NCBI GenBank assembly: GCA_038249055.1
Contig: JBBRWS010000005.1
Span: 1,822-65,821, forward strand
Origin: Minisyncoccia bacterium
Lineage (GTDB): Bacteria; Patescibacteriota; Minisyncoccia; Phycocordibacterales; UBA9973
Direction: 5' to 3'
Length of the DNA stretch: 64,000 bases
The position numbers were made by a program, and so were the translations under genes. Positions 14,879 to 34,763 of this stretch are shown here, in pieces. Numbering within the stretch: position 1 is the first letter of the stretch; the number at the start of each line of letters is the position of its first letter. The notes under the pieces were generated by a model. That model did not search any database and had not been told where the DNA came from. It saw only the letters and a program-made list of their open reading frames with translations.

Positions 14879-16384
14879 TTAATTTAGTTTCAAACTCCAC
14901 AAAGTGGAATCCTTTTTGTTTGTAAAGAATAATGTATTTTCTGATTTATCTAAAAACAAATTAGTACCGTCGACAGATTTTTCATCTGAAGAATTTGCGA
15001 GTGTTTCTACACTACCATCTACTGTGTTTATTTTTATAAAATAATCATCAAAAGAAATAAGCCCTTGATACCAATAATCAGGATATTGATTACCTTTGAT
15101 GACATTTGGTACAGCACAGTAAATATTAACATTATCAATACTCCAAACACATTTTTCTGGTAAACCAAAGGTTTTAAGATCTTTTGTTGTATTTTTTTCA
15201 ATATCAAAAATACCAAGCTTTGGTCCTTCTGTTGTTGATACACTGTATAAAACAATAGAACCACTTTTGTTAATTAAGGTTGTTAGTCCTTCAATTCCAC
15301 CAAATATTTTTGAAATTGTTTTATTTGTTGTATTTAAAATAAACATACTACCAGGAACACTATAAGACGGTTTTGTTGTTAGGTATATTCTTTGGCGATT
15401 ATCCCATTGCGACAACCACTCCGTAAAAGGAGAAGAGAAAACATTATCTTTTCTAGACTCCCCAAAAGTTCCAGTAGTACCAGTTACCCCGTTACTATTT
15501 TCTGTTAAATAAAAGAATTTAGTTTTATCAATCGATATACTTAAATCGGAAATATTTTGTGGTAAAAATTCTCCATTTGAAGTACTTAATGTTGCTAGAT
15601 AAGTGTTTATTAATTTTTCACTAGAAAGATATCTATAGATAACTGTTTGACCCGTTTTATCAAAAAATGCTTCATAAATACTAGGAATTGTTGAGTTTGA
15701 AATTTTTTCCTTTGTTTTTGTGTCTAAAAACATTTTATATATATGACCATTTAACCTTTCTACATATCTTATGGAAGGAGCTTCTTCATAAAGACTTTTT
15801 TCTAAAGAACTTCCATTGGGCTGTACTGTTTTTGTAAAAAAAGGAGCAGTTTCTGTGTCTATTTTACCTGTAATAGTTAAATTATTTAATTTTTGAAAAG
15901 CTTTTATTGCTTCTATTGCTTTTTTACCCAAAGCACCATCTACTACTAATGGTGGCACAAGCGACAATTTTTCATTTAAAATTATTTGGATTTCTTTTCT
16001 TCCTTCTTTTGTCAGTGGATTGATTACTATCTGAATAGGCTCAGGTTGAGCTTCAACTGCAGTGTTTGGGTTGATTTCTATTAACCTTGTATCTTCCATA
16101 AAGGTAGCACCAGCCACAGCAAAATCCGTTATTTGAGAGAATCTTGATATTTGTGGTGTACTTCCGTTTTGGCCAGGTTCTTGACCTCCTGTTGTACCTG
16201 ATGTGTTAACAGGTGGTTCTGTTTGCCCTCCTCCACCAAAAGGATAAAATGTTTGATACCAAGGAACATCAACTTTAGTTGTTCCATCAGTTGGAGTTTT
16301 TTTCCCTAATAAATAAAGTCCAAAAACCATCGCTCCAACGATTGCAAACACTGTTGTAAAAATAATGATTGTTTTTTTAGGCAT
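14879..16384 (-). CDS. Secreted/membrane-anchored protein with peptidoglycan-binding (PG_binding_1-like) domain; last gene of the T4SS-like cluster
   Basis: 501 aa; N-terminal TM; Gly/Thr-rich linker; motif LVVDGALGKKAIEAIKAFQKLNNLTITGKIDTET resembles the PG-binding domain. Confidence 0.5.
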   Translation of the reverse strand: MPKKTIIIFTTVFAIVGAMVFGLYLLGKKTPTDGTTKVDVPWYQTFYPFGGGGQTEPPVNTSGTTGGQEPGQNGSTPQISRFSQITDFAVAGATFMEDTRLIEINPNTAVEAQPEPIQIVINPLTKEGRKEIQIILNEKLSLVPPLVVDGALGKKAIEAIKAFQKLNNLTITGKIDTETAPFFTKTVQPNGSSLEKSLYEEAPSIRYVERLNGHIYKMFLDTKTKEKISNSTIPSIYEAFFDKTGQTVIYRYLSSEKLINTYLATLSTSNGEFLPQNISDLSISIDKTKFFYLTENSNGVTGTTGTFGESRKDNVFSSPFTEWLSQWDNRQRIYLTTKPSYSVPGSMFILNTTNKTISKIFGGIEGLTTLINKSGSIVLYSVSTTEGPKLGIFDIEKNTTKDLKTFGLPEKCVWSIDNVNIYCAVPNVIKGNQYPDYWYQGLISFDDYFIKINTVDGSVETLANSSDEKSVDGTNLFLDKSENTLFFTNKKDSTLWSLKLN

Positions 16385-16393
16385 AACTATTTT

Positions 16394-17875
16394 TTAATTA
16401 AAAGCAGAACCGCAATATCTTTTATCACCAAGCCAAGCACTTTTATTTGCTGTGTATAAACTTTTTGCAATCTCTAAGTTTTTAGTTGAATCTAGTAGTA
16501 TATTTTTACATTTTTCATATAATGCTTCTTTTCCTGGTAGTAAAGAACAACTAAAACCATTATTATATTTTGGCTCTATTGCATCTTTTCCGGCTACTTT
16601 TTTATCAAACAAACCTACACATTCACTTCCCGCAAGTATACCATTTGCAGATAAATTTATTTGAAATAAACCAAAAGAAAAAGGTGTTTTACCTGGATTG
16701 CAAACATCGGTTCCACTGATTGCGTTTGTTCCACTACTTTCCATATTACAAATTTTTGACATTGCTACTGCATCATTCGGAAAATATTTAGTTAAATTTT
16801 GAACGGTGCAAGGAGAGCTAGGAGTTGTAACTGGTGTGCAGCGAATACTTTCACCATTTGAATTTTTGGGATCAGCAATACCTCTATCGTATAAAGGTTC
16901 GATACTCGCATTAACTGATTTAATGTTTATACCACCCTTCCCTAACAAGTCAGGGTTTATAGTATTTAACAAAGCGTAAGAACCAAGAGCAATTAATAAA
17001 CCTAAAATTGCCGAAGTAATTCTACTCTTGGCCTCAGTTTTTCCAAAAATAGATTCATCTCCCATATATTGAACTCCACCAATAACAATCATAATGACAG
17101 CAAGAACTCCACAAAGACCGATGGCCATTAAAAATATAGTATTAAAATATTCACCTATATTTTCAGGTGCAGTAGTTAATTTTCCTATAGGTGCTAGGAG
17201 TTTATATACCGCCGGTGTTTTGTTTGAAATATCTGTTTTAGGTGTTACAACAAAAGGTTTATCGTCTGTTCCAAGAGGTAAAATTTCTAAAAATTTTCCA
17301 TCCTCCAAGCAAGTTGCACCGTCACATTCGTAATATAGATTACCACTGGGTTTATTTAATGACTGATAAACAACACTACCATCTTTGTATAATTTAAAAT
17401 ATAAATTACAATCAAAACCTGGTCCATGTTCGCACACCTCTTCACCCAGTTGAATATGTATTGCAGAGTTGTCTGTTGGAAGTTTAATGTTTTGTTCATA
17501 TAAACCAGAATCAGTTAGAGGGTCATCAAAAGCCAGACCATCAGTTTCATAAACACTAAAAGAGATATCTGGGTAATTAATACAATCTTTTGTCTTAATT
17601 ATAATATCAGCAGTAGTTGTTCCTTCTTTAAAAAATCCATCTGGTTGTTCACCATACGGATCCCACCCAGCTGAATTAATAGTACAATCGGCTGCAGAAA
17701 CAAGGTTTTTTTGAAAAGATAAGTTATTAAAACCACTTAAGACGATATTAAAAGGTAATAAAATATTAAATATTAAAAAAACTATTAATATATAAAATGA
17801 TGTTTTTTTCATCACATTAGAAACTAATGATAATGAATTATTTTTTACTATTATATTTTTTTTATTAATTTTCAT
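16394..17875 (-). CDS. T4SS-associated cell-wall hydrolase candidate: membrane protein with C-terminal VirB1/SLT-like lytic transglycosylase domain
   Basis: 493 aa; signal/TM at N-terminus, two central TMs, C-terminal ESSGTNAISGTDV...FSFGLFQINLS matching the SLT catalytic Glu and GLxQ motif. Confidence 0.5.
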   Translation of the reverse strand: MKINKKNIIVKNNSLSLVSNVMKKTSFYILIVFLIFNILLPFNIVLSGFNNLSFQKNLVSAADCTINSAGWDPYGEQPDGFFKEGTTTADIIIKTKDCINYPDISFSVYETDGLAFDDPLTDSGLYEQNIKLPTDNSAIHIQLGEEVCEHGPGFDCNLYFKLYKDGSVVYQSLNKPSGNLYYECDGATCLEDGKFLEILPLGTDDKPFVVTPKTDISNKTPAVYKLLAPIGKLTTAPENIGEYFNTIFLMAIGLCGVLAVIMIVIGGVQYMGDESIFGKTEAKSRITSAILGLLIALGSYALLNTINPDLLGKGGINIKSVNASIEPLYDRGIADPKNSNGESIRCTPVTTPSSPCTVQNLTKYFPNDAVAMSKICNMESSGTNAISGTDVCNPGKTPFSFGLFQINLSANGILAGSECVGLFDKKVAGKDAIEPKYNNGFSCSLLPGKEALYEKCKNILLDSTKNLEIAKSLYTANKSAWLGDKRYCGSAFN

Positions 17876-17907: not shown

Positions 17908-18939
17908 TTACAAATTTATTTTTAATTGATTACTAGCTTTTTGGAATAATTCATTCATGTTTTCCATTGTAAAATTTATAGTCGCATATCCTCCACGTGA
18001 AGCCGGTCTAATGGTTAATTCGTTTCTTTTTGAAGGAGTTAATATATCTTCACTGTTTATTTTCCAATTATAACTAAAATCAGATTCATTTCCTTTTGTT
18101 GAAAAAAAATAAGGTTCAGCAACTACGGTCATTTCATCCTCATTCATAACAGTTTCTTTGTCAAGGGCATTATTATATAATATTCCCTCCGTTGGTGATT
18201 TTTTGTAAAATATTACAGTTGGTTTATACATAGGTATTTCTATTGTATTTTCTGATCCATAATTTCCACCAACAGCAGAAGCAGTTACTGATATTTGACT
18301 TTTTTCATCAAAAATACTATTTTTAAAAACATAAGAATTTTTACCATAACCAGAGGCATCTAGGTTGGTTTGACTATTATTTTTCCAAGTATATGAAATA
18401 TTTCCACTTCCAGATTTTATGCTATTAGTGTTAGGTATTGCTACTGCTCTAACAAGATCACCCATAATCGGTAAGGCTTTACCTTTGTAAAATGGAGGTG
18501 TATATCCATTAATAGATTCCCACATTATTTCAACTTCCGAAGGAATTATAATAATTTTTTTTGTTATTGTATTTAAAGACCCCACTAGCCTAATACTTAT
18601 ATTTATAATACTTGTAACATCTGGACCTTGTGCTTTAAAGGTATAGCTTTTTTTACCGATACCAGAAAGACTTGTAGTAGAGTCGGTTTGCCATGTTATT
18701 ATGGCTTTATTCAAATCAGTTGCGTAACTAGATAGAGTGATTGTCACATCTTGATATGGTTGCGGATTATTTGGAACTGTTTCAACATTAATTTCACCTT
18801 CTTGTACTTCTATTTGTGTCTCCGCAAAAGAAAAACCGGGCATATTTATTATTCCTAGAATAAAAAACCCAATAAGAAAAAATTTTATTTTTATAAATTT
18901 CACTATGTATATTATATAATAATCTTGTAAACCAAACAA
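17908..18939 (-). CDS. Secreted beta-rich protein with N-terminal membrane anchor (possible VirB8/TcpC-like channel component)
   Basis: 343 aa; N-terminal TM then soluble domain; assignment by position and topology only. Confidence 0.3.
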   Translation of the reverse strand: MFGLQDYYIIYIVKFIKIKFFLIGFFILGIINMPGFSFAETQIEVQEGEINVETVPNNPQPYQDVTITLSSYATDLNKAIITWQTDSTTSLSGIGKKSYTFKAQGPDVTSIINISIRLVGSLNTITKKIIIIPSEVEIMWESINGYTPPFYKGKALPIMGDLVRAVAIPNTNSIKSGSGNISYTWKNNSQTNLDASGYGKNSYVFKNSIFDEKSQISVTASAVGGNYGSENTIEIPMYKPTVIFYKKSPTEGILYNNALDKETVMNEDEMTVVAEPYFFSTKGNESDFSYNWKINSEDILTPSKRNELTIRPASRGGYATINFTMENMNELFQKASNQLKINL

Positions 18940-18991: not shown

Positions 18992-20824
18992 CTATTTATT
19001 ATTTGAAGCCAATAGTTCACTTTTTGCTTTTTTAATAGCAAGAATTTGAGAAGGGTCTGAGGTTATAATCTGGTCTTCTGTATATGAAGCAATTGTCTTT
19101 ATTGCGACGTGTTTTAAACCAGCAAAGAATATACCCTCCCCCACATTTGCTTCAAGTAATAGATATTTTTCTTCGTCGGTAAGATTGAAGGTTTTTTGGA
19201 GAACATCTATGGTTGCTGGCGATTGCTTTAGGAGTAATTGTATAGATGAGTTTGTAACAATAGGAATACCATACGGGCTTTTCATAAAATCCCCTACGTC
19301 TTGAGTAATAGTAGCAAGTCCTAAATAGTATTTTCTTCCACGTTTTGCAATTGAATATAAGAATGAAGCAGTATCTTCTGATTTCATCATCCACCAAGCC
19401 TCATCAACTACAAGTAATCTTTTTTTAATATTTTTACGAATAGCATTCCATATATAATGAGTAATTATATACATAGCAACAGGTTTAAGTTCGTCTTCCA
19501 TGTCTCTCACAGAGAAAACAATAAATTTTCTATTAATATCTACGTTTGATGGCTGGTTTAAGAAAGCAGACCATGAACCATGTGTATATTTAACTAAACG
19601 TTGCATAAGTGATTCACTCCCCTCCATACCAGAAAGAACAACTTCGAAGTCTGATAACATAGGAGGTTCAATATTCATAAAATCTGAATCAGTAGTAATA
19701 TCTTTTAGAGCGTATGTTTCAGTAATAGCCGCATCAATAATAGAATCTTCTTCTGGAGTAAGACCTCCAAGCATTATACGAAACAACCCAACAAGGTTTA
19801 TTGTGTTTGCTCTTAAAACATCTGCCCCTGTTTCTTCTCCTGTAGGTATTGGTAAATCAAATGGATTTATATGGTGGTCTGAAGATAAGGCAATATTAAA
19901 GTATCTACCTCCTACTGCTTCGGCTAAATATTCATATTCACGTTCAGGGTCTATTACAATAACTTCAGTATCAAACATTAGAGTACGAATTATTTCTAAT
20001 TTTGTTGCATAAGATTTACCCGCACCAGCAGTTGCAAAAGTTATAGAGTTATAGTTAGGTAAAGAAAATCTGTCAAAAAGAATTAAGCTGGAGTTGTGGC
20101 GGTTTACTCCATAGAGTATTCCTTTGTCTTCGGTTAGGTCAAAAGAAACAAAAGGAAAAATACTTGAAAGTGGTTCAGTGTTTAATTTTTGGTGTATACC
20201 TAATAGGTCTGTACCTAGAGGTATTACGCTCTTAAAACCCTCATTTTGCTGGAATAAAGCAGGTTTAAGATAAATAAGTTTTGATTCAAGAAGAGATTTT
20301 ATTTCATTCTCAATTTTAAATAAATCGTTATCATTTTCAGCATAAACTGTAATATAAAGTCCTACATCAAACATTTTTTCTTGGGCTTGCATAAGATTAT
20401 CTCTTAAATCTTCAAGATCTCTATATGCAGTATCAAGCATTGGATCACGAACAAGTCCTTTAGATTCACGAATAGAAATCTGACTTTGTACTTCAGCAAC
20501 CTTTTTTTGAAATGATCTTAATATTTCGGCGGTTTCAATTGGGTGTATAAAAATAGAAATATCAAAAACCTTATCCAAATTAACAATAGGAGAAAACCAA
20601 TTGTCACTCAAATATCTAGGATATGATATAACGAAAAAGGTTCTTGCTATTTTATCTCCAAGATTTAGTGATTTGGGTGTGATTTGAAGAGCAGAAGGTG
20701 CAATAATATCTTGAAGTTCAAGAGTTGCAGCTTTATATATTTCACTCGGCAAAACCGGCATAACCATGCTTTTATGGCTAGATAAATCTTTTTTGCCTCC
20801 AAATAATGATGATAATATTGACAT
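18992..20824 (-). CDS. virB4: VirB4/TraC/TrbE-family conjugal-transfer ATPase, ATPase (C-terminal) portion
   Basis: 610 aa; Walker A FATAGAGKSY, Walker B LLVVDEAWWMM (VirB4-type DEAW), conserved C-terminal motifs. Confidence 0.8.
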   Translation of the reverse strand: MSILSSLFGGKKDLSSHKSMVMPVLPSEIYKAATLELQDIIAPSALQITPKSLNLGDKIARTFFVISYPRYLSDNWFSPIVNLDKVFDISIFIHPIETAEILRSFQKKVAEVQSQISIRESKGLVRDPMLDTAYRDLEDLRDNLMQAQEKMFDVGLYITVYAENDNDLFKIENEIKSLLESKLIYLKPALFQQNEGFKSVIPLGTDLLGIHQKLNTEPLSSIFPFVSFDLTEDKGILYGVNRHNSSLILFDRFSLPNYNSITFATAGAGKSYATKLEIIRTLMFDTEVIVIDPEREYEYLAEAVGGRYFNIALSSDHHINPFDLPIPTGEETGADVLRANTINLVGLFRIMLGGLTPEEDSIIDAAITETYALKDITTDSDFMNIEPPMLSDFEVVLSGMEGSESLMQRLVKYTHGSWSAFLNQPSNVDINRKFIVFSVRDMEDELKPVAMYIITHYIWNAIRKNIKKRLLVVDEAWWMMKSEDTASFLYSIAKRGRKYYLGLATITQDVGDFMKSPYGIPIVTNSSIQLLLKQSPATIDVLQKTFNLTDEEKYLLLEANVGEGIFFAGLKHVAIKTIASYTEDQIITSDPSQILAIKKAKSELLASNNK

Positions 20825-21103
20825 CCCGTTAGAGATAGGAAGCGCCTAATCTATTTTTAAGATAACGCTTTCCCATTCCCGATTTTAAATATAATTCTCT
20901 CGACCGAGATTTTTCTTCGCTCTTACATGCTTCATAATAAATAATTTCAAACGGTCCTCTTCCTTTTGCATAAACAGACAGACCATTGTTGTGTTGTAGA
21001 AGGCGTTTCCGTAAATCTTTTGTACTTCCTGTGTATATATTACCATCTTTTTTACTTTTTAATATATAGGTGTAATAAAACATATATAATCTCTAACGGG
21101 ACC
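20822..21103 (-). promoter_or_regulatory. Instance 3 of the inverted-repeat element: 5' arm GGTCCCGTTAGAGAT directly before the GIY-YIG ATG; 3' arm CTATCTCTAACGGG directly before the virB4(C) ATG; the GIY-YIG ORF occupies the loop
   Basis: Perfect 13-nt arm complementarity (TCCCGTTAGAGAT / ATCTCTAACGGGA); TACAAT -10-like hexamer just upstream of the 5' arm. Confidence 0.5.
20829..21083 (-). CDS. GIY-YIG domain-only endonuclease (UPF0213/YhbQ-like)
   Basis: 84 aa; YTYILKSKKDGNIYTGSTKDLRKRLLQHN matches the GIY-x10-YIG / R / E catalytic layout. Confidence 0.7.
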   Translation of the reverse strand: MFYYTYILKSKKDGNIYTGSTKDLRKRLLQHNNGLSVYAKGRGPFEIIYYEACKSEEKSRSRELYLKSGMGKRYLKNRLGASYL

Positions 21104-21108: not shown

Positions 21109-21762
21109 TTATTGTATTTTCATTCCCTGGCTAGTATCTCCTGGGTTAAATGTCTTATAAAAAAGTTCGACAACTTGATCTGTTTTAAGTTCAGATGTTC
21201 TTATTCCAACTCTACCGAGACCACTCATAATAACTCCTACTCTTTGGTCGAGTTGTGTTCTTTTTTCTTCAAAAGAAGCCAAATCCATAGCCTTCTTCGT
21301 ATCCTCTACTTGTTTTTTAGGAGCACTTCCACCAAGGAAACCCTCCATTATTTTATTGCCGGATTTTATTACAGTAGGACTATATGGAACAACAATAAAG
21401 AATGTTTTTGTCATTATGTTTACTTCGTCTGTAAAAGATTTAATAAAATCTATATATTCTTTGGTCTGAATTTTCAAAAGAGGCTCTGCTTGTTCTTTTA
21501 GTCTAACTTCTAGAGTAAGAAGATATGGTCGTATATCTAATCTGCGGGATTGCATACATATTTGAGTAGGAAAATCTAAGCCGTTTATAAAATTTTGGAA
21601 TTCATGTATGATGGCAGCTTGTTCGTCGGATGATTTTAAGGAAAGGTTTAAGGAAGATGCCAATAAAACAGCACGAAGACTACCATCTTTTAAAACAATG
21701 ATACCATTTCGAACTTCTTTTATTGGGACAAACTCTTGTGAACTCTTTGCGCTAATAGCCAT
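21109..21762 (-). CDS. VirB4/TrbE N-terminal domain protein (CagE_TrbE_VirB-like), separate ORF upstream of the ATPase portion
   Basis: 217 aa; IVLKDGSLRAVLLASSLNLSLKSSDEQAAIIHEFQNFINGL resembles the VirB4 N-terminal region (hydrophobic-KDGS-hydrophobic, EE..-rich second block). Confidence 0.5.
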   Translation of the reverse strand: MAISAKSSQEFVPIKEVRNGIIVLKDGSLRAVLLASSLNLSLKSSDEQAAIIHEFQNFINGLDFPTQICMQSRRLDIRPYLLTLEVRLKEQAEPLLKIQTKEYIDFIKSFTDEVNIMTKTFFIVVPYSPTVIKSGNKIMEGFLGGSAPKKQVEDTKKAMDLASFEEKRTQLDQRVGVIMSGLGRVGIRTSELKTDQVVELFYKTFNPGDTSQGMKIQ

Positions 21763-21874: not shown

Positions 21875-22294
21875 TTATTTACTCCCCTCATCTTTTCCCT
21901 GCACGTCTAAACTCCAAGAAAGATCCTTGATTTTATTAGTTGTTGTCATTGGTACAATAGATACCAACGGCGCAGTCTGTGAATCTTCCTCTTTTTCTTT
22001 GTCACCCGGTTTTACTAGTCTTTGTTTCCATATATATAATTTACTGGACATAAGATAATTAATGCCAGCCTCAAGATAAAAGATAAAAGGTTTTTCATTA
22101 ATTTTATAAAAAACCAGAAGAAAAGATAAAGTTCCTACTATTAGAATCGGAATAAGTCCAAGCCAAAAACCAAGAATTTTATATATAACAAATATTATTC
22201 CTCCCCCACCTAAAAGATATATAAATTGACGAAAAGAAAATGGGCCAAACAGCTTATCTTCGACGTCAATAAATTGTGGAACTTTAAATTGCAT
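21875..22294 (-). CDS. Small two-TM membrane protein, VirB3/PrgI-like candidate
   Basis: 139 aa; hairpin of two TMs at residues about 25-75; directly upstream of the VirB4 N-terminal ORF as in Gram-positive T4SS operons. Confidence 0.35.
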   Translation of the reverse strand: MQFKVPQFIDVEDKLFGPFSFRQFIYLLGGGGIIFVIYKILGFWLGLIPILIVGTLSFLLVFYKINEKPFIFYLEAGINYLMSSKLYIWKQRLVKPGDKEKEEDSQTAPLVSIVPMTTTNKIKDLSWSLDVQGKDEGSK

Positions 22295-23394: not shown

Positions 23395-23408
23395 TTTTTT
23401 ATTTTTGT

Positions 23409-26800: not shown

Positions 26801-29800
26801 CTACCAAATATTTAAAATTCTTTCTGTGCTATTCATATCTATGCTATCTACCCATTTACAACCCCTATCTATATTTTGATAATAATTACTAGGAAGTCCT
26901 CCCTCTGATCCTGTTTTTAATCCAGTTCCCCATGCCCAACAGTTTGAATATTCATTATTACCTATATTAAAGTTATTAAAGGTATCACAATCAATTCCGT
27001 CTGTAGTTTTACCTGTAAAATATCCAGATGCAACCCTGCATGATACATTTCTACCACTAGCATTATATATAGGTTCTAATAAACCAACTTCAGTGTAGCC
27101 AAATTGATCAGTGTCGGTGTCTGCTATTTTGTAAGGGTATGAACCATTTGTTCCTTTTGTATACCATGGATTTCCATGTCTAATTCCTGTAAAACCATTA
27201 GCATAAGGATTCGTTCCAAGATTAAATACAAAATTACTGTTTGCTTCTCTTGCAAATTCTGCTCCAGAATTAGCTTCACACAAATCTTTGTTACGTGAGC
27301 AAAAATCATTAAAACCACTATTATCATTTAGTTCCAAGTAGCATTTTTTTGTTAGGTTATCAATTTGACTAGCAAAATTTGTATTCTGTTCAATCTCATT
27401 ATATATTGTTGAAATATCTTCTACTGTTTTAAGGGATGATGATATTAGATAAAATTTGCGAAGCAATATGTCCAGTTGTGCTTTTTCTGCATCGTTAAAT
27501 GTTAAAGGGTTTTGTTCTATTAATAAACATTTATTGGCTCCACCACTTTCACATTTGTCCCCGTTTACAACTTTAGGTGGCTTACAGTCAGATTTATTTA
27601 TACATGCTTTTGTCTCAGTATCAGTTATCATCGGAGAAACACAAGGTCCAGGAACTTCACACTTGTCCCCAATTACAATTTTAGGTGACTTACAATCAGA
27701 TTTATTTATACATGCTTTTGTCTCAGTATCAGTTATCATCGGAGAAACACAAGGTCCAGGAACTTCACACTTGTCCCCAATTACAATTTTAGGTGACTTA
27801 CAGTCAGATTTATTTATACACAGTTTAGTTTCAGTGTCTGTGATTTTTGGAGAAAGACAAGGTACTGGTAATGAACTTGTTACTGTAAATGTTGTCCAGG
27901 CTCCACAGTTATTGTTTTCATTTACTTCTGTAATTAATCCATCGTCTACTGCTGATTTTTTATCTGCACAGGCACGTATATAATATGTACCCGCAGAAGT
28001 AAATTTATATGAAACTTTTGCAGTGTTACTAGTTTTTGGTGACATTATTGGAATAGTAACATCAAGCGACACCAGAGAAGAAGAGTTAGATGAGCTACTT
28101 GTACCAGGATTACTTTGAGTTATTGCAAAGAAAGATGAAAATGTTTTTAAAGTAGAACCACCCCCAATATTTGTTATTGTTGAGGAAAGCGTTGTTTGTG
28201 TATTTATAAGAGAGCTTGCAGGAGTAACATTTCCAGCTGTTAAATCAGGTTCTGTTCCTGAAGGAGAAGTTGATTCTGAGTTGTGTTCAGCTACATATTC
28301 TTTATTTAAATCCCCATTAACGTGACACTCAGGATCCGCATTGTCTATTAGTAAGTCGTTGTCGTTATTATTTATTTTATCGTTACATTCATATTTTGTT
28401 TCACCAAATCCACTTACAAAAATATTTACAAAACCAGCACCTGAGCCGAGATCTCCTTTACAGGTTACAGAGTATGAAGTATTTTCTGTAAGTGGTCCTG
28501 TTTCAAAAGAGCCAGCAGTAGCAGTTCCTCTTCCAGTTCCTGCATCACAAGATGTACTGTTTGTTGAGGTCCAATTAATAGTTGAAGAAGCTCCAAGTGC
28601 AACTGAACTCGGACTGGCAGTAACTTTGACTGTTGGAAAAGTATTACTTCCACCGGTAACAAAAACATAAACACTATTGTTGCTTGAACCGTTTAATCCC
28701 GTACATGTTACTGAATATGAATTACTGTCTTTGAGTGGTCCTGTTTCAAAAGAACCAGAAGTTCCAGACCCCCTTCCAGTTCCTGCGTCACAAGACGTAC
28801 TGTTTGTGGAAGTCCAACTTATAGTTGAAGATGCACCAGGAGCAACTGAACTTGGGCTAGCTGTAACACGGACTGTTGGAAATTTATTTCCAAAACCAAA
28901 ATCGTCACAAGTAGGAGGATTTATTGCTCCGTTTATACATTTATTAGAATCAATAGGACCAGTAGTACAAACAGGAGGATTTGTTGCTCCATTTATACAT
29001 TTATTAGAATCAATAGGACCAGTAGTACAAACAGGAGGATTTGTTGTTCCATTTATACACTTGTTGTCGGTACCCACGTTACAAATCTCAGGATTTATTG
29101 CTCCATTTAGACATTTATTATCAGAAGTAATAGTACAAAGCGGAGGATTAATTGTTCCATTTATACACTTATTGTCAGAAGTAATAGTACAAAGCTGAGG
29201 ATTTGTTGCCCCATTGAGACACTTGTTGTCAGAGCCAATAGTACAAAGCTGAGGATTTGTTGCCCCATTGAGACACTTGTTGTCAGAGCCAATAGTACAA
29301 AGCTGAGGATTTGTTGCCCCATTAAGACATTTATTATCGGAGCCCACAGTACAAATTGGAGGATTAATTGTTCCATTTATACATTTATTATCAGAAGTAA
29401 TAGTACAAAGTGGAGGATTAATTGTTCCATTCACACATTTATTTTCAGAACCTATAGTACAAAGCGGAGGATTAATAGCTCCATTAATACATTCACTTTC
29501 TAAAATACTATCGCAAAGAGGAGGGTTGTTTGCTTTGTTTAGACACGTATTGTCAGAGTTAATAGTACAAAGCGGAGGATTAATTGTTCCATTTATACAT
29601 TTATTATCAGACCCTACAGTACAAAGCGGAGGATTAATTGTTCCATTTAAACATGAACCATTTACTAAAATAGTACAAAGTGGAGGATTAATTGTTTCGT
29701 TTAAACATAAATTACGTGAAACTGTAGTACAATTTGGGGGGTTGTTTGCCCCATTTAAACATAAATTATTTGAGTCTATAGTACAAAGTGGAGAATTAAC

Positions 29801-30775
29801 CGCTCCGTTTACGCATGCTTTTTTAGAGGGAGTCACGTTAAATAAATTATTTAAAAATCTAGAGAAAGAATCAAAAAAAGTATTTGTAGCTCCACTGTTT
29901 CTTATTGTAATTCTACCACTACCCTCATTGGATATATTTTCATTTGCGATACCGAATACCGAACTTCCTGCGGTTGTTTTTATTATTGTAGGATTGAAAA
30001 GAGATACGCCATCACCTTTTTTAAGATCTTCACCTGCTTGAGCTATTATTTTTAAAGAATTACCAAAAAGATTTTCGTCTCCTGGAGAACCCCAAGCTCT
30101 TGTGTTGGGATTAAACAACCACTCTCCTCCACTAGGATTCAATGTCCAAACTTTTGTATTTGAATCATAAACCCAACCACCTGTTGGTGGTACAGGGACG
30201 GTCTCAGGTGAAACCCAGGCTCTAGCTGTTGAATCATAAACCCAACCTCCGCCAGTTGTACTTAGTGTCCATTTTCTTGTATCGGAACTGTATATCCATC
30301 CACCTACTGGCTGTGATGGAATACCTTGCGGTGCAATCCATTTTCCTGAATTAGAATTAAATACCCACTCTCCTTTGTTTGGATTAAGTGTCCATTCGCC
30401 TTTTCCTGGGTTAAATTTCCAACCCCCAATATTTAAGGTATTGTTATTTATTAAAATTTCCCCTTTATCATTATATTTTATGTCACTTAATGCAAAACCA
30501 AACACATCCGTGCCCCCGGTTGCTTTTATTACAATTGGATTTACTAGAGATACCTCATCCCCCTTTTTTATATCACCACCTGCTTTAGTTGTTATAGATA
30601 CACCTTTTGAGTTACTTGATGGTAACAAAGGAGAAAATATTTTAGCAATAGTGTTTGAAGTTTTTACACCAAAAATATCTCGATTTTTGATTAATAAATA
30701 TCCCAAAATCAAAAGAAATAGAATAACAATCAATGTTATTATTAGCGCTTTACTTTTTTTGGGTTTATTTTCCAT
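26801..30775 (-). CDS. Giant repeat-rich cell-surface protein (1324 aa) with Trp-repeat region, about 12 Cys-containing 19-20-aa repeats (CxNGxxNPPxCTxxSDNK), two ~75-aa Ig-like repeats and three ~40-aa CxSPxITDTETKxCINKSDCK repeats
   Basis: N-terminal TM/signal; internal periodicity visible at protein level and as perfect DNA repeats (e.g. 57-60-nt units at about 28.96-29.32 kb; ~120-nt units at about 27.6-27.85 kb). Confidence 0.55.
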   Translation of the reverse strand: MENKPKKSKALIITLIVILFLLILGYLLIKNRDIFGVKTSNTIAKIFSPLLPSSNSKGVSITTKAGGDIKKGDEVSLVNPIVIKATGGTDVFGFALSDIKYNDKGEILINNNTLNIGGWKFNPGKGEWTLNPNKGEWVFNSNSGKWIAPQGIPSQPVGGWIYSSDTRKWTLSTTGGGWVYDSTARAWVSPETVPVPPTGGWVYDSNTKVWTLNPSGGEWLFNPNTRAWGSPGDENLFGNSLKIIAQAGEDLKKGDGVSLFNPTIIKTTAGSSVFGIANENISNEGSGRITIRNSGATNTFFDSFSRFLNNLFNVTPSKKACVNGAVNSPLCTIDSNNLCLNGANNPPNCTTVSRNLCLNETINPPLCTILVNGSCLNGTINPPLCTVGSDNKCINGTINPPLCTINSDNTCLNKANNPPLCDSILESECINGAINPPLCTIGSENKCVNGTINPPLCTITSDNKCINGTINPPICTVGSDNKCLNGATNPQLCTIGSDNKCLNGATNPQLCTIGSDNKCLNGATNPQLCTITSDNKCINGTINPPLCTITSDNKCLNGAINPEICNVGTDNKCINGTTNPPVCTTGPIDSNKCINGATNPPVCTTGPIDSNKCINGAINPPTCDDFGFGNKFPTVRVTASPSSVAPGASSTISWTSTNSTSCDAGTGRGSGTSGSFETGPLKDSNSYSVTCTGLNGSSNNSVYVFVTGGSNTFPTVKVTASPSSVALGASSTINWTSTNSTSCDAGTGRGTATAGSFETGPLTENTSYSVTCKGDLGSGAGFVNIFVSGFGETKYECNDKINNNDNDLLIDNADPECHVNGDLNKEYVAEHNSESTSPSGTEPDLTAGNVTPASSLINTQTTLSSTITNIGGGSTLKTFSSFFAITQSNPGTSSSSNSSSLVSLDVTIPIMSPKTSNTAKVSYKFTSAGTYYIRACADKKSAVDDGLITEVNENNNCGAWTTFTVTSSLPVPCLSPKITDTETKLCINKSDCKSPKIVIGDKCEVPGPCVSPMITDTETKACINKSDCKSPKIVIGDKCEVPGPCVSPMITDTETKACINKSDCKPPKVVNGDKCESGGANKCLLIEQNPLTFNDAEKAQLDILLRKFYLISSSLKTVEDISTIYNEIEQNTNFASQIDNLTKKCYLELNDNSGFNDFCSRNKDLCEANSGAEFAREANSNFVFNLGTNPYANGFTGIRHGNPWYTKGTNGSYPYKIADTDTDQFGYTEVGLLEPIYNASGRNVSCRVASGYFTGKTTDGIDCDTFNNFNIGNNEYSNCWAWGTGLKTGSEGGLPSNYYQNIDRGCKWVDSIDMNSTERILNIW
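27560..29720. repeat. Intragenic perfect and near-perfect tandem DNA repeats inside the giant surface-protein gene
   Basis: Identical 57-60-nt units in tandem (x2 and x3) and ~120-nt units; all in-frame coding repeats. Confidence 0.7.
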
Positions 30776-30801
30776 AATTTATTTAATATATTAACTATTT
30801 A

Positions 30802-33800
30802 TTATCTTCGATATCCACTACCACCACTAACAGATGTTCTTGTTCCACTAGTACCTGGATTTACATAACCAGGACAAGTTGGGTCGTTCTTGTCTGCTAA
30901 TCCATTTAAGTCATCATCTATTCCGTTAAAACATCTTTCAAAATCAACAGATATATTTGAAATAGAGCTTGCATCATAAACTTGAATATTTTCTTCAGCA
31001 AAACATTCCTTATATTCTTTTAAGTAGTCTTCCTTAGATAGAATTTTACCAGTAGTTACTAATTCATTTATACATGCGTAATATTCTCTATCACAAGCGA
31101 CAGTACCACGTTCATTTTCCATACACTCAGTTTTAGCATCTTCACATGTTGATGTTGCGGTTGAATTAATTTTATTTATTTGTAGTAATAAATTAGCATC
31201 GCGTCTGTTTTGAGCGGCCACAATTATTTTACTAACTTCAGTTCTAATAGATTCAAGTTTAGAAATATTTATTTTTGCCTGAGCGACAGAATCACTGTAT
31301 TCTTGTTTTGATTTATAAATCTCATTATCATAAAAGATAATGTCTTTTGTTAAATCATAACCACCTGCAGCCATTGGCATATATGATGGATTTTTATAAG
31401 TATTTGCGGGTTCAGATTCTACTTCAACGTATTCCTTAGTTACATTATTGAAATATAGTCTATTGATCATTTTATCAAATGAGTCATAAAACCCCTGGAA
31501 CAAGAAATTGTTTACATAATCTGTAAAGCTGTCTTTATATCTTGTCCTCAATTGTATTCTGTCGTCTTCATCTGAACTTAATTTAGAATTATTGTCGTAA
31601 GTATAACTTCCCCCACTAGCATCCCAAAATCTAGTAAAAGTCCATATCAAATTCCATTGAGATTTCCACCCAGTTAAAAGTGTTGCCCATACTTTTTGGT
31701 TATCTTTATAAATATTTTGCAAATTATCATATGTCCATTGACCAGGACCATCTATTTTTACTCCAAATCTTTTATTTGAGCTATCGATTGCACCCACAAA
31801 TATTGAACCAACCCAATTTTGATATGCACTTTGTGCCTCAGCTGAATTTGATTTGTAGCTTGGATTTGGGCCAGGAAGACAGTAATCTAACTCTCCTAGT
31901 TTTGGCATTACTGTGGGTAAAACTTTTAGTATTTCAGTTGCAGCAACTACATAATCTTGTTGTATTTGAATGACACCACGGTTTTTTATAGGACTAGGTT
32001 GTCCTTTTTTCCAGTTTTGCCACTCATATCCATTCCAGAAAGCTCTATCGCCAACTTGCCATCCGTTATATCCATTATCAACAATCTTTGTGTTTCCTGG
32101 AGTTGTTACTTCCCAATATATATTTGTAGATATTTGGTTTTTGTTGTCATCATATACTGGAGGCAGATAACCACTCATTATTTGATCAAATTTGTCTGTT
32201 CTATTTATACTAGAATTTGCATTCCAAGTTCCTGCTTTATATGTATTTTCGTGTATATAAGTATTTCCTAAATCTCTGGTTAAATTAAACCCATCATAAG
32301 CGCCGTTGTTATCATATGGAGTGTTTCCATCTAAACTAGTAAAACTATTTATGTTGTCAGTCCAATTTGATGTATTTTCTACTTTATCTGAAAGCCCAGA
32401 AAGACCACCACCTTCTAGTTTTGAAATTAAAATAGAAAATAAAGCATTTAGCGAGTCATTTATGGTTTTTGCAAGTTCGAGCTGGCGTTCTGGGGAGTTT
32501 AGATAATTGGTTGTCTTATCTCGGATAATGCTTCCTGGTGTTGTTATTTTCCAATCAACACACTTGTCGAAATTTGGAGTTGTTGTACTTTTTGTTGGTT
32601 TAAATACCGATGTGGTCATAGTTTTTAAACCAGCAGCGGCAGATTTGGCAGAGATGGATGGAGTTTCTTTAAGAGGGTCACCTTCTTTGTCGTACCACTG
32701 CCACAATATGCACTCCTTTTGACTTAAAAATCCATTATTTTCAGCGAGTTGAGATTTTTGTTCCGTAACCTGTTGGACTTGGGTGTTTGTTAAATATTGA
32801 TTAGCAAGCATACTAAAACCCAAAGGATTGTTTTGGTCTCTTTGTGTTAATGCCATATACCCATCCCAACCACCCACAGAAAAATCATTTTGAAAATTAT
32901 TGTTTGCTTGTTGAGCTCTTTGAAGAGCTGTTTGAGTATTGTCTACTTGGTTTAATTGATCATTTGAATAAAAAGATTTTGGGTCTGAAATAAAAGCTCC
33001 TAAATCAGATTGAAGTCCCCCAAGAAAACCAGAGGAACTTGCCCCCACTCCTAAATTGCTTCGACTACTTGTTATTTTTGTTTCAGCAAATTCTCTAGCA
33101 TATGGATTTCCAAAAGCTTTATCAAGAAGGATGTCTGTTCCTGTTTCGATTACATTTCTTTCAATACTATTTGTAAAATTACGCATATTTTGAACGAAGA
33201 AGGGGTTACCTCCATATCCAGAATTCACCCAATTCATTGCACTACGAGTCATAGCGGTAAGTTGATTCTTTGCAAGAGTAATAGCAATTCCATCTAAACA
33301 TTGCTCCTTTGTGGATGTTTCAGCTGCTTGCTCATTTGCCTTATTTAATTCTTGGATAGTTTCTTTGCTTGTTGCATCAACGGCAGCTTTACACGCGTCT
33401 TCTCCTCCAATTTTTAATTCTTCAAGCCCTGTTTTTAATGCAGTAACTAAATCATTAACAAAAGGAATTGAACCTACTCCTGCTTCAGCACCTGTCTTTA
33501 TTCCAGCACAGGCTGTTCTAAGTTGTTCCCTTGTTTTTTTTATTTTATCTGCAGCAGCAAGTGCTGTTTTTTTAGGAGATTGTATAAATTTAATCATCCA
33601 AGTTGAAACTTTGTTTACAATACCTGTACACCCAACAACGTTTGTAAGTAAGTTTGAATTTACAACATCACTAATTTTAAATTTGTATGGATTGCTGCCT
33701 CCTTGGTTTGGGTTAGAATAAAGGTCGGACATATTAGTGGCTGCATATGTAGGTAAAGCAAATTGAAAAATAGATACTATAAATACAAACATAATCAATC

Positions 33801-33834
33801 CTGAAATTATTTTTGTGATAGTTTGTTTATTCAT
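30802..33834 (-). CDS. Large secreted protein (1010 aa), hypothetical; Cys-rich C-terminal module
   Basis: Cleavable-looking signal (..FALPTYAATN); no recognisable enzymatic motif. Confidence 0.45.
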   Translation of the reverse strand: MNKQTITKIISGLIMFVFIVSIFQFALPTYAATNMSDLYSNPNQGGSNPYKFKISDVVNSNLLTNVVGCTGIVNKVSTWMIKFIQSPKKTALAAADKIKKTREQLRTACAGIKTGAEAGVGSIPFVNDLVTALKTGLEELKIGGEDACKAAVDATSKETIQELNKANEQAAETSTKEQCLDGIAITLAKNQLTAMTRSAMNWVNSGYGGNPFFVQNMRNFTNSIERNVIETGTDILLDKAFGNPYAREFAETKITSSRSNLGVGASSSGFLGGLQSDLGAFISDPKSFYSNDQLNQVDNTQTALQRAQQANNNFQNDFSVGGWDGYMALTQRDQNNPLGFSMLANQYLTNTQVQQVTEQKSQLAENNGFLSQKECILWQWYDKEGDPLKETPSISAKSAAAGLKTMTTSVFKPTKSTTTPNFDKCVDWKITTPGSIIRDKTTNYLNSPERQLELAKTINDSLNALFSILISKLEGGGLSGLSDKVENTSNWTDNINSFTSLDGNTPYDNNGAYDGFNLTRDLGNTYIHENTYKAGTWNANSSINRTDKFDQIMSGYLPPVYDDNKNQISTNIYWEVTTPGNTKIVDNGYNGWQVGDRAFWNGYEWQNWKKGQPSPIKNRGVIQIQQDYVVAATEILKVLPTVMPKLGELDYCLPGPNPSYKSNSAEAQSAYQNWVGSIFVGAIDSSNKRFGVKIDGPGQWTYDNLQNIYKDNQKVWATLLTGWKSQWNLIWTFTRFWDASGGSYTYDNNSKLSSDEDDRIQLRTRYKDSFTDYVNNFLFQGFYDSFDKMINRLYFNNVTKEYVEVESEPANTYKNPSYMPMAAGGYDLTKDIIFYDNEIYKSKQEYSDSVAQAKINISKLESIRTEVSKIIVAAQNRRDANLLLQINKINSTATSTCEDAKTECMENERGTVACDREYYACINELVTTGKILSKEDYLKEYKECFAEENIQVYDASSISNISVDFERCFNGIDDDLNGLADKNDPTCPGYVNPGTSGTRTSVSGGSGYRR

Positions 33835-33869
33835 AAATAATTATTTATAGTATATCATTTTTATGTCTT

Positions 33870-34763
33870 TTATTGCAAAATTAAAGAAATTTTTTCTAGG
33901 TCAGAAGCAAGGGCGTCGCTATAATTCTTATAATTTAAAATTGCTTTCATTCCAAGAATTGGATCAGATAACACTTTTGATAAATCTAATATTGATTGAC
34001 CAGTTTTTTCATAATTATTTGCAGCACTTAAATGAGCAGGAATTAAAGATCTAGGAACAGATAATCCTATCATATTGTCACCAAAAGATTGATATGCACG
34101 AGCTACTGTAATTGCTGCATATAGTGCCTGTTCGTCTTGATTACTTATTCCCTGGATAATAAATGTTAGTTCACTGCCTATATCAGAATTAGAATATTTG
34201 CTTACAAGACCACCCAATTCATCATGATATGTGTTAAAAGATTCTTCTGAATCACTTACTACTGTTAGCATTTTTACTTCATACATATCAGGAATAGGAG
34301 TAGGTGAAACATTTTGTCCCAAAGCTTCTGAAACCGAGTTCATTGATTCCTCGTTTAATTCTCCTGTTTGTTGTAGTGAAATAATTGTTGCAAAAAATTG
34401 CCTAGAAAGTAAATCATTGTCGGTTATTGATTCTGAATCATCCATGTTTGTTATTATCCCATTTTGTTCAAGAGTTTTTTTCTTTGCTAGTATAAACTCT
34501 TTATTTTCGGGGCCACTTTTAGTAGGATCTAATCCCCATAAGTATTCCTCATAATCCGGAATACCATTTTTATTACTATCCTTTTGTGAAATACTTTCAG
34601 GAGTTCCAATAGTTAGTTTTATCGGTTCATTGTTTGTGGTATTTTTATTATTAAAAAAAGAAATTATTCCTCTAACTGTGAAAAATAAGATTATAATTAC
34701 AGCAATAATTAGGATTAATGTTATGAATTTTTTACTTGGAAGATAATTTTTATAATTATTCAT
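33870..34763 (-). CDS. Membrane-anchored hypothetical protein (first gene of the minus-strand cluster)
   Basis: 297 aa; single N-terminal TM. Confidence 0.4.
   Translation of the reverse strand: MNNYKNYLPSKKFITLILIIAVIIILFFTVRGIISFFNNKNTTNNEPIKLTIGTPESISQKDSNKNGIPDYEEYLWGLDPTKSGPENKEFILAKKKTLEQNGIITNMDDSESITDNDLLSRQFFATIISLQQTGELNEESMNSVSEALGQNVSPTPIPDMYEVKMLTVVSDSEESFNTYHDELGGLVSKYSNSDIGSELTFIIQGISNQDEQALYAAITVARAYQSFGDNMIGLSVPRSLIPAHLSAANNYEKTGQSILDLSKVLSDPILGMKAILNYKNYSDALASDLEKISLILQ

What the first reader, a model, noticed from the sequence alone, without database searches (positions are those of the whole stretch)
14879..34763. ~20 kb unidirectional cluster encoding a Gram-positive-type T4SS-like core without coupling protein or relaxase, plus giant repeat surface proteins
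Thirteen co-oriented genes are almost all predicted secreted or membrane proteins. The recognisable parts are VirB4 (two ORFs), a VirB1-like lytic transglycosylase fused to TM helices, a VirB3-like two-TM protein, a 916-aa polytopic VirB6-like protein, a peptidoglycan-binding protein, and two very large surface proteins (1324 aa repeat-rich; 1010 aa). No VirD4/TraG-like coupling ATPase, relaxase or oriT-like feature is seen. This fits a secretion or DNA-uptake/surface-attachment machine rather than a conjugative element, and is conceivably used for host-cell interaction by an episymbiotic CPR bacterium. Most components have no recognisable homolog by eye.
Basis: partly seen in the sequence, partly recalled or inferred. 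Interest (0 to 1): 0.75.

Follow-up and report, generated by a model that had tools for sequence, protein, structure and literature searches.

The report
Known Patescibacteria type IV secretion cluster
This 20-kb gene cluster is a real chromosomal type IV secretion machine of the kind already described in ultra-small Patescibacteria (CPR) bacteria; it has no DNA-transfer genes nearby, and its one locally new detail is a pilin-like protein fused to an exchangeable cell-wall-cutting domain.

Summary

Gene order is conserved in 80 Paceibacteria/Nomurabacteria genomes, so this is not an ICE. Corrections: the "two VirB4 ORFs" are the ancestral TrsD+VirB4 pair, here separated by an inserted GIY-YIG cassette. 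The 343-aa protein is a TM helix plus three Ig-like domains, not VirB8/TcpC. Only 8 of 13 proteins are membrane or secreted.

Side findings: pilin-hydrolase fusions with swapped hydrolase modules, and a start-codon-targeting GIY-YIG/TIR mobile element.

The parts
33870..34763 (-). 297-aa bitopic protein (N-terminal TM) with a DTDGDGIxDWEE Ca-binding-type motif. First gene of the cluster, next to ksgA.
   Evidence: TM. Conserved motif in alignment A5. Syntenic in 25/40 loci with a full upstream flank. No Pfam or PDB sequence match.
30802..33834 (-). 1010-aa secreted or anchored Cys-containing protein of unknown fold. Conserved neighbour of the T4SS core.
   Evidence: N-terminal hydrophobic segment, 14 Cys. 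Invariant TPGS, GGW and C..PGPN motifs across 36 orthologues. No Pfam or PDB match. Found in 30/40 loci.
26801..30775 (-). 1324-aa repeat-rich surface protein. It has GGW repeats, about 16 copies of an 18-aa Cys repeat, two Ig-like modules, CARDB and three copies of a 36-aa repeat. It occupies a variable slot.
   Evidence: Translation. CARDB 1e-07. TRF arrays at 28914-29806 and 27548-27863. 62 Cys. Detectable in only 11-13 of 80 loci.
23871..26621 (-). 916-aa extended VirB6-like polytopic protein. It has a signal/TM segment, a beta ectodomain (aa 50-250), a helical TM bundle (aa 267-620, nt 24762-25823) and a long helical C-terminal tail.
23409..23861 (-). 150-aa cytoplasmic protein, a paralogue of the next gene. 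Function unknown.
   Evidence: No TM. BLASTP against the 351-aa protein gives E 4e-10. No Pfam or NCBIfam hit.
22339..23394 (-). 351-aa cytoplasmic protein with two copies of the ~100-aa domain shared with the 150-aa protein, plus an acidic tail.
   Evidence: tblastn-detectable in 51/80 loci.
21875..22294 (-). 139-aa VirB3-like (PrgI family) protein with two TM helices.
   Evidence: Pfam PrgI 1.2e-07, 32.6 bits above the cut-off of 27; TcpE weak. Two TM segments. Present in 39/40 loci.
21109..21762 (-). 217-aa TrsD-like protein, a free-standing VirB4 N-terminal domain.
   Evidence: NCBIfam hits: VirB4_plasma positions 102-233 at 3.2e-08, TrsD 8e-06, CD1110 positions 2-119. It sits directly upstream of virB4 in all 80 loci, usually 1-7 nt apart.
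20824..21101 (-). Inserted mobile cassette: an 84-aa GIY-YIG nuclease ORF (20829-21083) bounded by perfect 13-bp inverted repeats (TCCCGTTAGAGAT / ATCTCTAACGGGA). It is not part of the T4SS.
   Evidence: Pfam GIY-YIG 7e-17. Inverted repeats. Absent from this junction in the 80 relatives. The same element occurs elsewhere.
18992..20824 (-). 610-aa VirB4 ATPase, the motor domain.
   Evidence: NF045971 at 369.5 bits, above the cut-off of 325. P-loop_TraG, AAA_10 and DUF87 domains. More than 8000 homologues; the top 120 clusters are 89-97% identical and all about 610 aa.
17908..18939 (-). 343-aa bitopic protein (start codon uncertain): an N-terminal TM helix plus three tandem Ig/FN3-like beta-sandwich domains.
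16394..17875 (-). 493-aa three-part protein: signal/TM segment, Cys-rich ectodomain, VirB2-like pilin hairpin (aa 240-297, nt 16985-17158) and a lysozyme-like C-terminal domain (aa 320-493, nt 16397-16918).
   Evidence: T4SS_pilin scores 22.5 bits here, below the 26.6 cut-off. However 38/38 orthologues match PF18895 and 20 match TrbC/VirB2. The C-terminus has C..ES and SFGLFQIN motifs, SLT_3 E 0.059 and c-type lysozyme E 0.18. Orthologues carry NlpC/P60, VanY, M15, SLT, YkuD, amidase or 3D domains instead.
14879..16384 (-). 501-aa bitopic protein with PG_binding_1 (aa 127-179, nt 15848-16006) and a conserved ~300-aa C-terminal domain of unknown fold. Last gene of the cluster.
   Evidence: PF01471 at 34.9 bits, above the cut-off of 23. 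TM. Alignment A8. No PDB sequence match. Present in 54/55 loci.
14800..14836 (-). Terminator-like hairpin (17-pair stem followed by a T tract) just after the last gene.
   Evidence: This is a consensus scan only.

Best explanation
This is the resident chromosomal type IV secretion system of a Paceibacteria (Nomurabacteria-like) Patescibacterium. It belongs to the Patescibacteria-specific branch of the monoderm MPF_FATA machinery and is inherited vertically next to the replication origin. It is not a conjugative element.

Shown:
- A VirB4 motor with intact Walker motifs, together with its free-standing N-domain partner TrsD.
- A VirB3/PrgI membrane anchor.
- An extended VirB6-like polytopic protein.
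- A single VirB2-like pilin module embedded in a larger extracytoplasmic protein.
- A peptidoglycan-binding protein.
- Conserved large surface proteins.

Inferred mechanism: TrsD/VirB4, docked on PrgI and a VirB6-like channel platform, powers assembly of a short envelope-spanning conduit. The pilin-domain protein contributes to this conduit, and its fused wall hydrolase opens peptidoglycan locally. The TM-anchored triple-Ig protein and the PG-binding protein brace the conduit across the wall. The 1010-, 1324- and 297-aa surface proteins dock it to the host cell. No coupling protein or relaxase is encoded nearby. The machine is therefore most likely used to exchange macromolecules with the host. 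My preference is uptake of host-derived material, with export of Sec-delivered proteins second. Conjugative DNA transfer is unlikely.
For: Identity of parts: VirB4, TrsD, PrgI, PG_binding_1; VirB6 fold; pilin fusion.

Taxon.

Vertical inheritance and a fixed ksgA...dnaA position in 80 genomes.

No composition break. No T4CP, relaxase or adjacent integrase in the window.

Strong purifying selection on VirB4, at 89-97% identity while its neighbours are 25-60% identical.

Literature:
- The homologous Saccharibacteria T4SS is essential for epibiotic growth and lacks a cluster-encoded T4CP and relaxase (PMC10633639).
- The phylum-wide survey reports the same repertoire and the dnaA/ksgA neighbourhood (PMC12102498).
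- The uptake or conduit hypothesis is raised in PMC12857230 and PMC11665869.
- Tubular structures at a parasite-host interface are reported in bioRxiv 10.64898/2026.06.21.733656.
Against: No experiment bears on this organism.

The direction and the substrate of transport are unknown.

A T4CP could be encoded elsewhere in the genome; PMC12102498 finds this commonly.

The VirB6 assignment rests on a predicted structure (pTM 0.49) with only 9-17% identity.

The window protein's own pilin score is below Pfam's gathering cut-off, and its hydrolase domain is sub-threshold.

The roles assigned to the Ig-like, PG-binding and surface proteins are inferred from position and topology only.
Confidence: 0.78

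Rival explanations
1. The cluster is a conjugative element (ICE) or its remnant. The cluster would be the mating-pair-formation module, with its coupling protein, relaxase and oriT lying outside the window.
For: VirB4, PrgI and TrsD are homologous to conjugation proteins of pCF10, CTn2 and pGO1. About 17.7 kb of the 81.7-kb source contig and the rest of the genome could not be inspected. A tyrosine recombinase lies at 49848-50783.
Against: The same genes sit in the same chromosomal slot between ksgA and dnaA in 80 species-level genomes. There is no GC break. The recombinase is 15 kb away and looks like XerC/D. No MOB or T4CP family was found in the window. Only 109 relaxases were found in 3,035 Patescibacteria genomes, and these were rarely near virB4 (PMC12102498).
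Confidence: 0.05
2. The cluster is a dedicated nucleic-acid import machine, working like H. pylori ComB or the archaeal Ced system. In this reading the T4SS pulls host DNA or RNA into a nucleotide-auxotrophic episymbiont.
For: The cluster has no T4CP, as in ComB. There is a weak CedB-like signal in VirB4 (7.4e-07, 28 bits). The literature proposes uptake (PMC11665869, PMC12857230). Host-RNA feeding with T4SS-like tubes is reported in bioRxiv 10.64898/2026.06.21.733656. PNPase, ComM-like and PilB genes lie in the same window.
Against: No DNA-binding or channel protein of the ComEA/ComEC type is in the cluster. The CedB score is far below its cut-off of 700. Nothing here shows the direction of transport. 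The neighbouring genes are housekeeping and are not co-conserved evidence.
Confidence: 0.35
3. The cluster is an export or display system for Sec-delivered surface proteins and wall hydrolases, working like the T4CP-less Ptl system. Its substrates would be the co-encoded 1010-, 1324-, 297- and 501-aa proteins or the hydrolase domain, delivered onto or into the host envelope.
For: Eight of 13 products carry N-terminal signal/TM segments. The large surface proteins are conserved neighbours. The hydrolase module fused to the pilin is exchanged between species. Wang et al. suggest protein export (PMC10633639).
Against: No effector or secretion signal has been identified. Co-location could simply reflect structural roles as adhesins or braces.
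Confidence: 0.3

Closest known systems
Patescibacteria-clade T4SS (Southlakia epibionticum SEML1_0006-0019, Wang et al. 2023, PMC10633639; phylum survey by Quinonero-Coronel et al. 2025, PMC12102498)
   Same: It shares TrsD+VirB4, PrgI/VirB3, VirB6 and a VirB2-like PF18895 pilin module. It has no relaxase or T4CP in the cluster. It is chromosomal and lies beside dnaA, dnaN, rnpA and ksgA, as reported for Paceibacteria.
   Different: Saccharibacteria carry an array of about six small pilins. This lineage has one pilin module (two in 4 of 70 loci), buried in a 400-600-aa protein between an ectodomain and a wall-hydrolase domain. A conserved triple-Ig bitopic protein follows virB4, and no VirB8-like protein was found. 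These points are not mentioned in the papers read.
Monoderm conjugative MPF_FATA systems (pCF10 Prg/Pcf, CTn2 CD1110 family, pGO1/pIP501 Trs/Tra)
   Same: VirB4 passes the CD1110-family cut-off. PrgI family membership holds. TrsD+TrsE-like two-gene VirB4 arrangement. The local order VirB6-like ... VirB3 - VirB4 - wall hydrolase parallels prgH-prgI-prgJ-prgK.
   Different: It has no PcfC/VirD4, relaxase, PrgL/VirB8-like protein or LPXTG adhesins. It has a pilin module, which Gram-positive systems lack. It is not on a mobile element.
R388 TrwI / VirB6 (PDB 7o3v, 8rt9)
   Different: Identity is only 9-17%. The protein adds a 200-aa beta ectodomain and a ~300-aa helical tail ('extended VirB6'). 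No Pfam TrbL/VirB6 hit was found in 41 orthologues.
T4CP-less T4SSs (H. pylori ComB for DNA uptake; Bordetella Ptl for toxin export)
   Same: A VirB4-driven machine without a cluster-encoded coupling protein or relaxase.
   Different: Those are diderm systems with a VirB7/9/10 core. There is no sequence relationship beyond VirB4, VirB3, VirB6 and VirB2. The resemblance concerns possible mode of action only.

Membership tests
Patescibacteria-type T4SS (MPF_FATA-derived) | VirB4 ATPase of the MPF_FATA / Patescibacteria lineage | tested here: met
   NF045971 (CD1110) scores 369.5 bits, above the cut-off of 325. The nearest 120 clusters are 89-97% identical, and those that carry a source name are called Paceibacteria, Nomurabacteria or Patescibacteria. 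No phylogenetic tree was computed.
Patescibacteria-type T4SS (MPF_FATA-derived) | TrsD-like VirB4-N-domain gene adjacent to virB4 | tested here: met
   (TrsD 8e-06; VirB4 N-terminal models). Adjacent in 80/80 loci.
Patescibacteria-type T4SS (MPF_FATA-derived) | VirB3/PrgI homologue near virB4 | tested here: met
   PF12666 scores 32.6 bits, above the cut-off of 27.
Patescibacteria-type T4SS (MPF_FATA-derived) | VirB6-like polytopic protein | tested here: met
Patescibacteria-type T4SS (MPF_FATA-derived) | VirB2-like pilin (PF18895/PF04956) near virB4 | tested here: met
   The window protein scores 22.5 bits, below the 26.6 cut-off. However 38/38 positional orthologues match PF18895 and 20 match TrbC, and a lineage HMM gives 9e-37.
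Patescibacteria-type T4SS (MPF_FATA-derived) | No relaxase in the neighbourhood; chromosomal, near dnaA/ksgA | tested here: met
   (no MOB family). dnaA lies at 11181-12554 and ksgA at 34851-35747.
Conjugative element (ICE or plasmid MPF module) | Relaxase, oriT and a type IV coupling protein | tested here: not met
   None found in the 64-kb window. oriT is not testable with these tools.
Conjugative element (ICE or plasmid MPF module) | Variable presence or position, an integrase and att flanks | tested here: not met
   The position is fixed in 80 genomes. There is no adjacent integrase or tRNA and no GC break.
VirB8 / TcpC / PrgL (NTF2-like bitopic T4SS protein), tested for the 343-aa protein | N-terminal TM plus an alpha+beta NTF2-like extracytoplasmic domain | tested here: not met
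   The TM helix is present, but the ectodomain is three all-beta Ig/FN3-like sandwiches. hhalign against PrgL gives probability 0.8%.
VirB1-like lytic transglycosylase (SLT), tested for the 493-aa C-terminus | Significant match to an SLT/lysozyme-like family with the catalytic Glu-Ser motif | tested here: inconclusive
   ES and GLFQIN motifs are conserved in 4 homologues. The matches are only sub-threshold: SLT_3 E 0.059 and c-type lysozyme E 0.18.
DNA-import T4SS (Ced/ComB) | CedB/ComB-type ATPase and partner proteins | tested here: not met
   CedB NF041017 scores 28 bits against a cut-off of 700. No other Ced or ComB components were found.

The most novel reading that the evidence does not exclude
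In Paceibacteria the T4SS 'pilin' is not a free pilus subunit. It is the membrane hairpin of a three-part protein: ectodomain, VirB2-like hairpin, wall hydrolase. The hydrolase module has been repeatedly swapped between species (NlpC/P60, VanY/M15, SLT, YkuD, amidase, lysozyme-like) independently of the VirB4 phylogeny. The most novel reading is that this hydrolase is aimed at the host's cell wall, not the symbiont's own, and that module swapping tracks host-wall chemistry. The pilin-tethered enzyme would then be the host-range-determining 'drill' of an uptake conduit. The triple-Ig protein would replace VirB8.
Probability: 0.2. Interest if true: 0.65.

Novelty: already known. Interest (0 to 1): 0.3.

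Why it matters
The Patescibacteria T4SS is one of the few machines shown to be essential for the epibiotic lifestyle, in Saccharibacteria. Its substrate and direction of transport are still unknown.

This window adds no new kind of system. It does give a clean Paceibacteria example with structural support for the hard-to-detect VirB6. It offers a candidate non-NTF2 replacement for the 'missing' VirB8. It also shows that the only pilin module is fused to an exchangeable wall hydrolase. That leads to concrete, testable hypotheses about how the machine crosses two cell walls.

Tried and rejected
1. Group I intron around the GIY-YIG ORF: Rfam found nothing.

2. 'VirB4 split by the GIY-YIG gene': rejected. 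All 80 relatives have a separate 217-aa TrsD ORF, usually 1-7 nt before a ~610-aa VirB4.

3. VirB8/TcpC fold for the 343-aa protein: rejected.

4. Sequence-level VirB6 evidence: none was found, whether from Pfam on 41 orthologues, a PDB profile search, tblastn against plasmids, or hhalign against PrgH. Precomputed PF19590 tags on four homologues were not reproduced.

5. PDB profile searches for the 1010-, 297- and 501-aa proteins gave only noise.

6. Looking beyond the window for a T4CP or relaxase: the 81.7-kb source contig is not in the look-up index.

7. The afdb50 fold library was unavailable.

8. The idea that ORF-less TIR elements carry a mini-ORF ending at the right-end stop codon: rejected.

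9. The promoter scan was not above chance.

Full report
**What is there**

The minus strand of window 14879-34763 carries 13 tightly spaced ORFs. In transcription order they encode:
- 297 aa
- 1010 aa
- 1324 aa
- 916 aa
- 150 aa
- 351 aa
- 139 aa
- 217 aa
- 84 aa
- 610 aa
- 343 aa
- 493 aa
- 501 aa

A strong terminator-like hairpin follows the last gene, at 14836-14800.

The flanks are housekeeping genes:
- On one side: ksgA (34851-35747) and a UvrD/PcrA helicase.
- On the other side: the origin block jag/khpB, yidC, rnpA, dnaA and dnaN.

G+C content is about 0.29-0.36 throughout, with no break at the cluster edges.

**Identity of the parts**

- **VirB4 (610 aa).** It passes NCBIfam's cut-off for the CD1110 family of VirB4-like conjugal ATPases (369.5 bits against 325, model positions 183-734). 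It carries P-loop_TraG, AAA_10 and DUF87 domains. Walker A (AGAGKS) and Walker B (LLVVDEAW) can be read in the sequence.
- **TrsD-like protein (217 aa).** It matches the N-terminal region of VirB4 models and TrsD.
- **PrgI/VirB3 (139 aa).** This two-TM protein is a PrgI-family member above the Pfam cut-off.
- **PG-binding protein (501 aa).** It has PG_binding_1 above the cut-off.
- **Repeat protein (1324 aa).** It has CARDB, 62 cysteines and verified tandem repeats.
- **Topology.** Eight of the 13 products have an N-terminal hydrophobic segment or TM helices. TrsD, VirB4, the 84-, 150- and 351-aa proteins do not.
- **150- and 351-aa proteins.** They are paralogues (E 4e-10).

**The 916-aa protein**

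Sequence methods found nothing:
- Pfam on 41 orthologues.
- A profile search of PDB sequences.
- tblastn against plasmids.
- hhalign against pCF10 PrgH.

An AlphaFold2 model built from 54 homologues has mean pLDDT 75 and pTM 0.49. It shows three regions:
- a confident beta ectodomain
- a helical membrane bundle (aa 267-620)
- a long helical tail

It fits the 'extended VirB6' class described in PMC12857230.

**The 343-aa protein**

The suggested VirB8/TcpC likeness is not supported. The protein is nevertheless conserved directly after virB4 in 54 of 55 loci. It is thus a candidate functional stand-in for the VirB8 that surveys fail to find in most Patescibacteria (PMC12102498). This is inference.

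**The 493-aa protein**

Its two central TM helices are a VirB2-like pilin hairpin:
- The window protein itself scores 22.5 bits on PF18895, below the 26.6 cut-off.
- All 38 positional orthologues match PF18895, and 20 match TrbC/VirB2.
- A lineage-specific HMM gives 9e-37.

The hairpin is preceded by an ectodomain (IPT/TIG in some orthologues) and followed by a C-terminal domain. In the orthologues this domain is NlpC/P60 (8), VanY (6), Peptidase_M15_4 (2), SLT (2), SLT_2 (2), SLT_4 (1), YkuD (2), Amidase_5 (2) or 3D (1).

In the window the C-terminal domain has conserved C..ES and SFGLFQIN motifs. Its database matches are only sub-threshold: SLT_3 (E 0.059) and c-type lysozyme (E 0.18). 'VirB1-like lytic transglycosylase' is therefore plausible but unproven.

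Two further points bear on module swapping:
- The window's C-terminal module is shared with L030, L023 and L039 (VirB4 about 79-81% identical). It is not shared with the closest relatives by VirB4. The N-terminal ectodomain, in contrast, is shared with closer relatives (VirB4 82-90% identical). This indicates module exchange.
- Of 80 pilin-core matches, 75 have at least 100 aa after the core. Most loci (66 of 70) have one such gene, and none has a small free-standing pilin.

I found no mention of this fusion in the papers read.

**Is it a split VirB4?**

No. VirB4 has more than 8000 homologues. The top 120 clusters are 89-97% identical and all about 610 aa.

In 80 genome loci a separate TrsD-like ORF sits directly upstream, usually 1-7 nt away. 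PMC12102498 reports TrsD as the commonest T4SS component next to virB4 in Patescibacteria.

What is unusual in this window is a 278-bp insert at that junction. It holds an 84-aa GIY-YIG nuclease ORF bounded by perfect 13-bp inverted repeats. Rfam finds no intron.

**Context and inheritance**

All 80 loci come from Paceibacteria, Nomurabacteria or Patescibacteria MAGs; about a third of the record titles are labelled 'uncultured Candidatus Saccharibacteria bacterium'. The shared gene order is:

ksgA - 297 - 1010 - (variable slot, here the 1324-aa protein) - 916 - (150/351) - prgI - trsD - virB4 - 343 - pilin fusion - 501 - [jag yidC rnpA] - dnaA

The core genes are present in 97-100% of loci with enough flank.

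No T4CP, relaxase or adjacent integrase occurs in the window. The only tyrosine recombinase is 15 kb away. This excludes a recently acquired ICE.

The remaining 17.7 kb of the 81.7-kb source contig and the rest of the genome could not be reached. PMC12102498 shows that VirD4-like genes are commonly encoded far from virB4. 'No coupling protein' therefore holds only locally.

**Comparison with what is known**

- Wang et al. 2023 (PMC10633639) described an essential T4SS in the Saccharibacterium Southlakia. It resembles Gram-positive conjugative systems, carries pilins, and lacks a recognisable coupling protein and relaxase.
- Quinonero-Coronel et al. 2025 (PMC12102498) found VirB4 in 2,417 of 3,035 Patescibacteria assemblies. 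Most form a monophyletic clade inside MPF_FATA, with TrsD, PrgI, VirB6 and VirB2-like pilins nearby and almost no relaxases. In Paceibacteria the locus has a dnaA/dnaN/rnpA/ksgA neighbourhood.
- The 2025 FEMS review (PMC12857230) and PMC11665869 discuss a conduit or uptake role.
- A 2026 preprint (10.64898/2026.06.21.733656) reports tubular, possibly T4SS, structures at a parasite-host interface.

The finding and its interpretation are therefore already in the literature. The gene order also parallels pCF10 prgH-prgI-prgJ-prgK.

**Mechanism**

What is shown is the part list. What follows is inferred. TrsD/VirB4 on a PrgI/VirB6-like platform would assemble a short wall-spanning conduit. The pilin-domain protein would contribute to that conduit, and its fused hydrolase would open peptidoglycan. 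The triple-Ig and PG-binding proteins would brace it. The large surface proteins would dock the host.

Without a cluster-encoded T4CP or relaxase, there are two live options for transport: uptake of host macromolecules, or export of Sec-delivered proteins. I lean to uptake, at low confidence.

**Verdict**

The cluster is real, well supported and correctly interpreted, but already known. The added value lies in four points:
- fold support for the VirB6-like protein
- refutation of the VirB8/TcpC idea
- the pilin-hydrolase fusion with module swapping
- the mobile GIY-YIG/TIR element noticed in passing

Noticed in passing
window 20824-21101 (GIY-YIG copy); 46348-46462; 6814-6939; 1347-1378. Also L020 8522-8797 and 9881-10000; L007 1291-1408; L029 17671-17735; L053 7343-7455; L074 12901-12976; L032 9243-9358.: This is a family of small elements bounded by inverted repeats (CCCGTTAGA[GA][AG]... 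/ ...TCTAACGGG). Some copies are ORF-less (65-126 bp) and some carry an 84-aa GIY-YIG nuclease ORF (276 bp). They sit directly in front of the start codons of real genes: virB4, prgI, trsD, pilB, a PBP, a NYN-domain gene and dnaA-side genes. The start codon is duplicated in the flanks (ATGAGT, ATGAAT or ATGGAT on both sides). The nuclease stop codon TAA lies inside the right repeat, 4 nt before the restored host ATG.
   Followed up: partly
metagenome loci L082-L161: An exact-TIR scan (CCCGTTAGAGAT-N240-265-ATCTCTAACGGG) hit at least 120 metagenome stretches. Of the 81 elements in the 80 loci held, 76 keep a GIY-YIG-like frame of at least 75 aa, with divergent sequence. Of 75 with both flanks, 36 are followed directly by ATG and 10 by GTG, and 24 have ATG at position -6 of the left flank. 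In many copies the open frame runs from the repeat itself (PVRD...). This is consistent with the nuclease reading in frame with the duplicated host start codon and so borrowing the host gene's RBS and ATG (frame not checked copy by copy). No description of this was found in two literature searches.
   Followed up: partly
L049 2999-3379, L060 9565-9960, L080 9594-9929 (the trsD|virB4 junction): The junction that holds the GIY-YIG cassette in the window holds 112-132-aa '23S rRNA-intervening sequence protein' genes (PF05635, E 1e-19 to 1e-35) in three other genomes. L020 has an ORF-less TIR element there. The start of the highly conserved virB4 gene is thus an insertion hot spot for small selfish genes.
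   Followed up: partly
window 18992-20824 compared with its neighbours: VirB4 is unusually conserved. Its top 120 homologue clusters (of the database clustered at 90% identity) are 89-97% identical, and it is 75-95% identical across the 80 genomes. The adjacent cluster genes are only 25-65% identical in the same genomes.
   Followed up: no
window 22339-23861: Two adjacent cytoplasmic paralogues (150 and 351 aa; the latter has two copies of the ~100-aa domain) lie between the VirB6-like gene and prgI. They match no family. They recur in most relatives and could be adaptors or chaperones of the system.
   Followed up: partly
window 1379-3079, 38121-39233, 40046-41635, 43264-45402: Other envelope and nucleic-acid genes lie in the same 64 kb. 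They are a PilB-type T2SSE ATPase, a LysM+M23 peptidase, a ComM/YifB-like Mg-chelatase-family ATPase and PNPase.
   Followed up: no
window 17908-18939: The 343-aa ORF starts at a TTG in the mechanical ORF list. A database entry identical over its whole 311-aa length starts 32 codons later, which would remove the TM helix. Orthologues (about 331 aa) conserve the hydrophobic N-terminus, so the longer form with a non-ATG start is more likely.
   Followed up: partly
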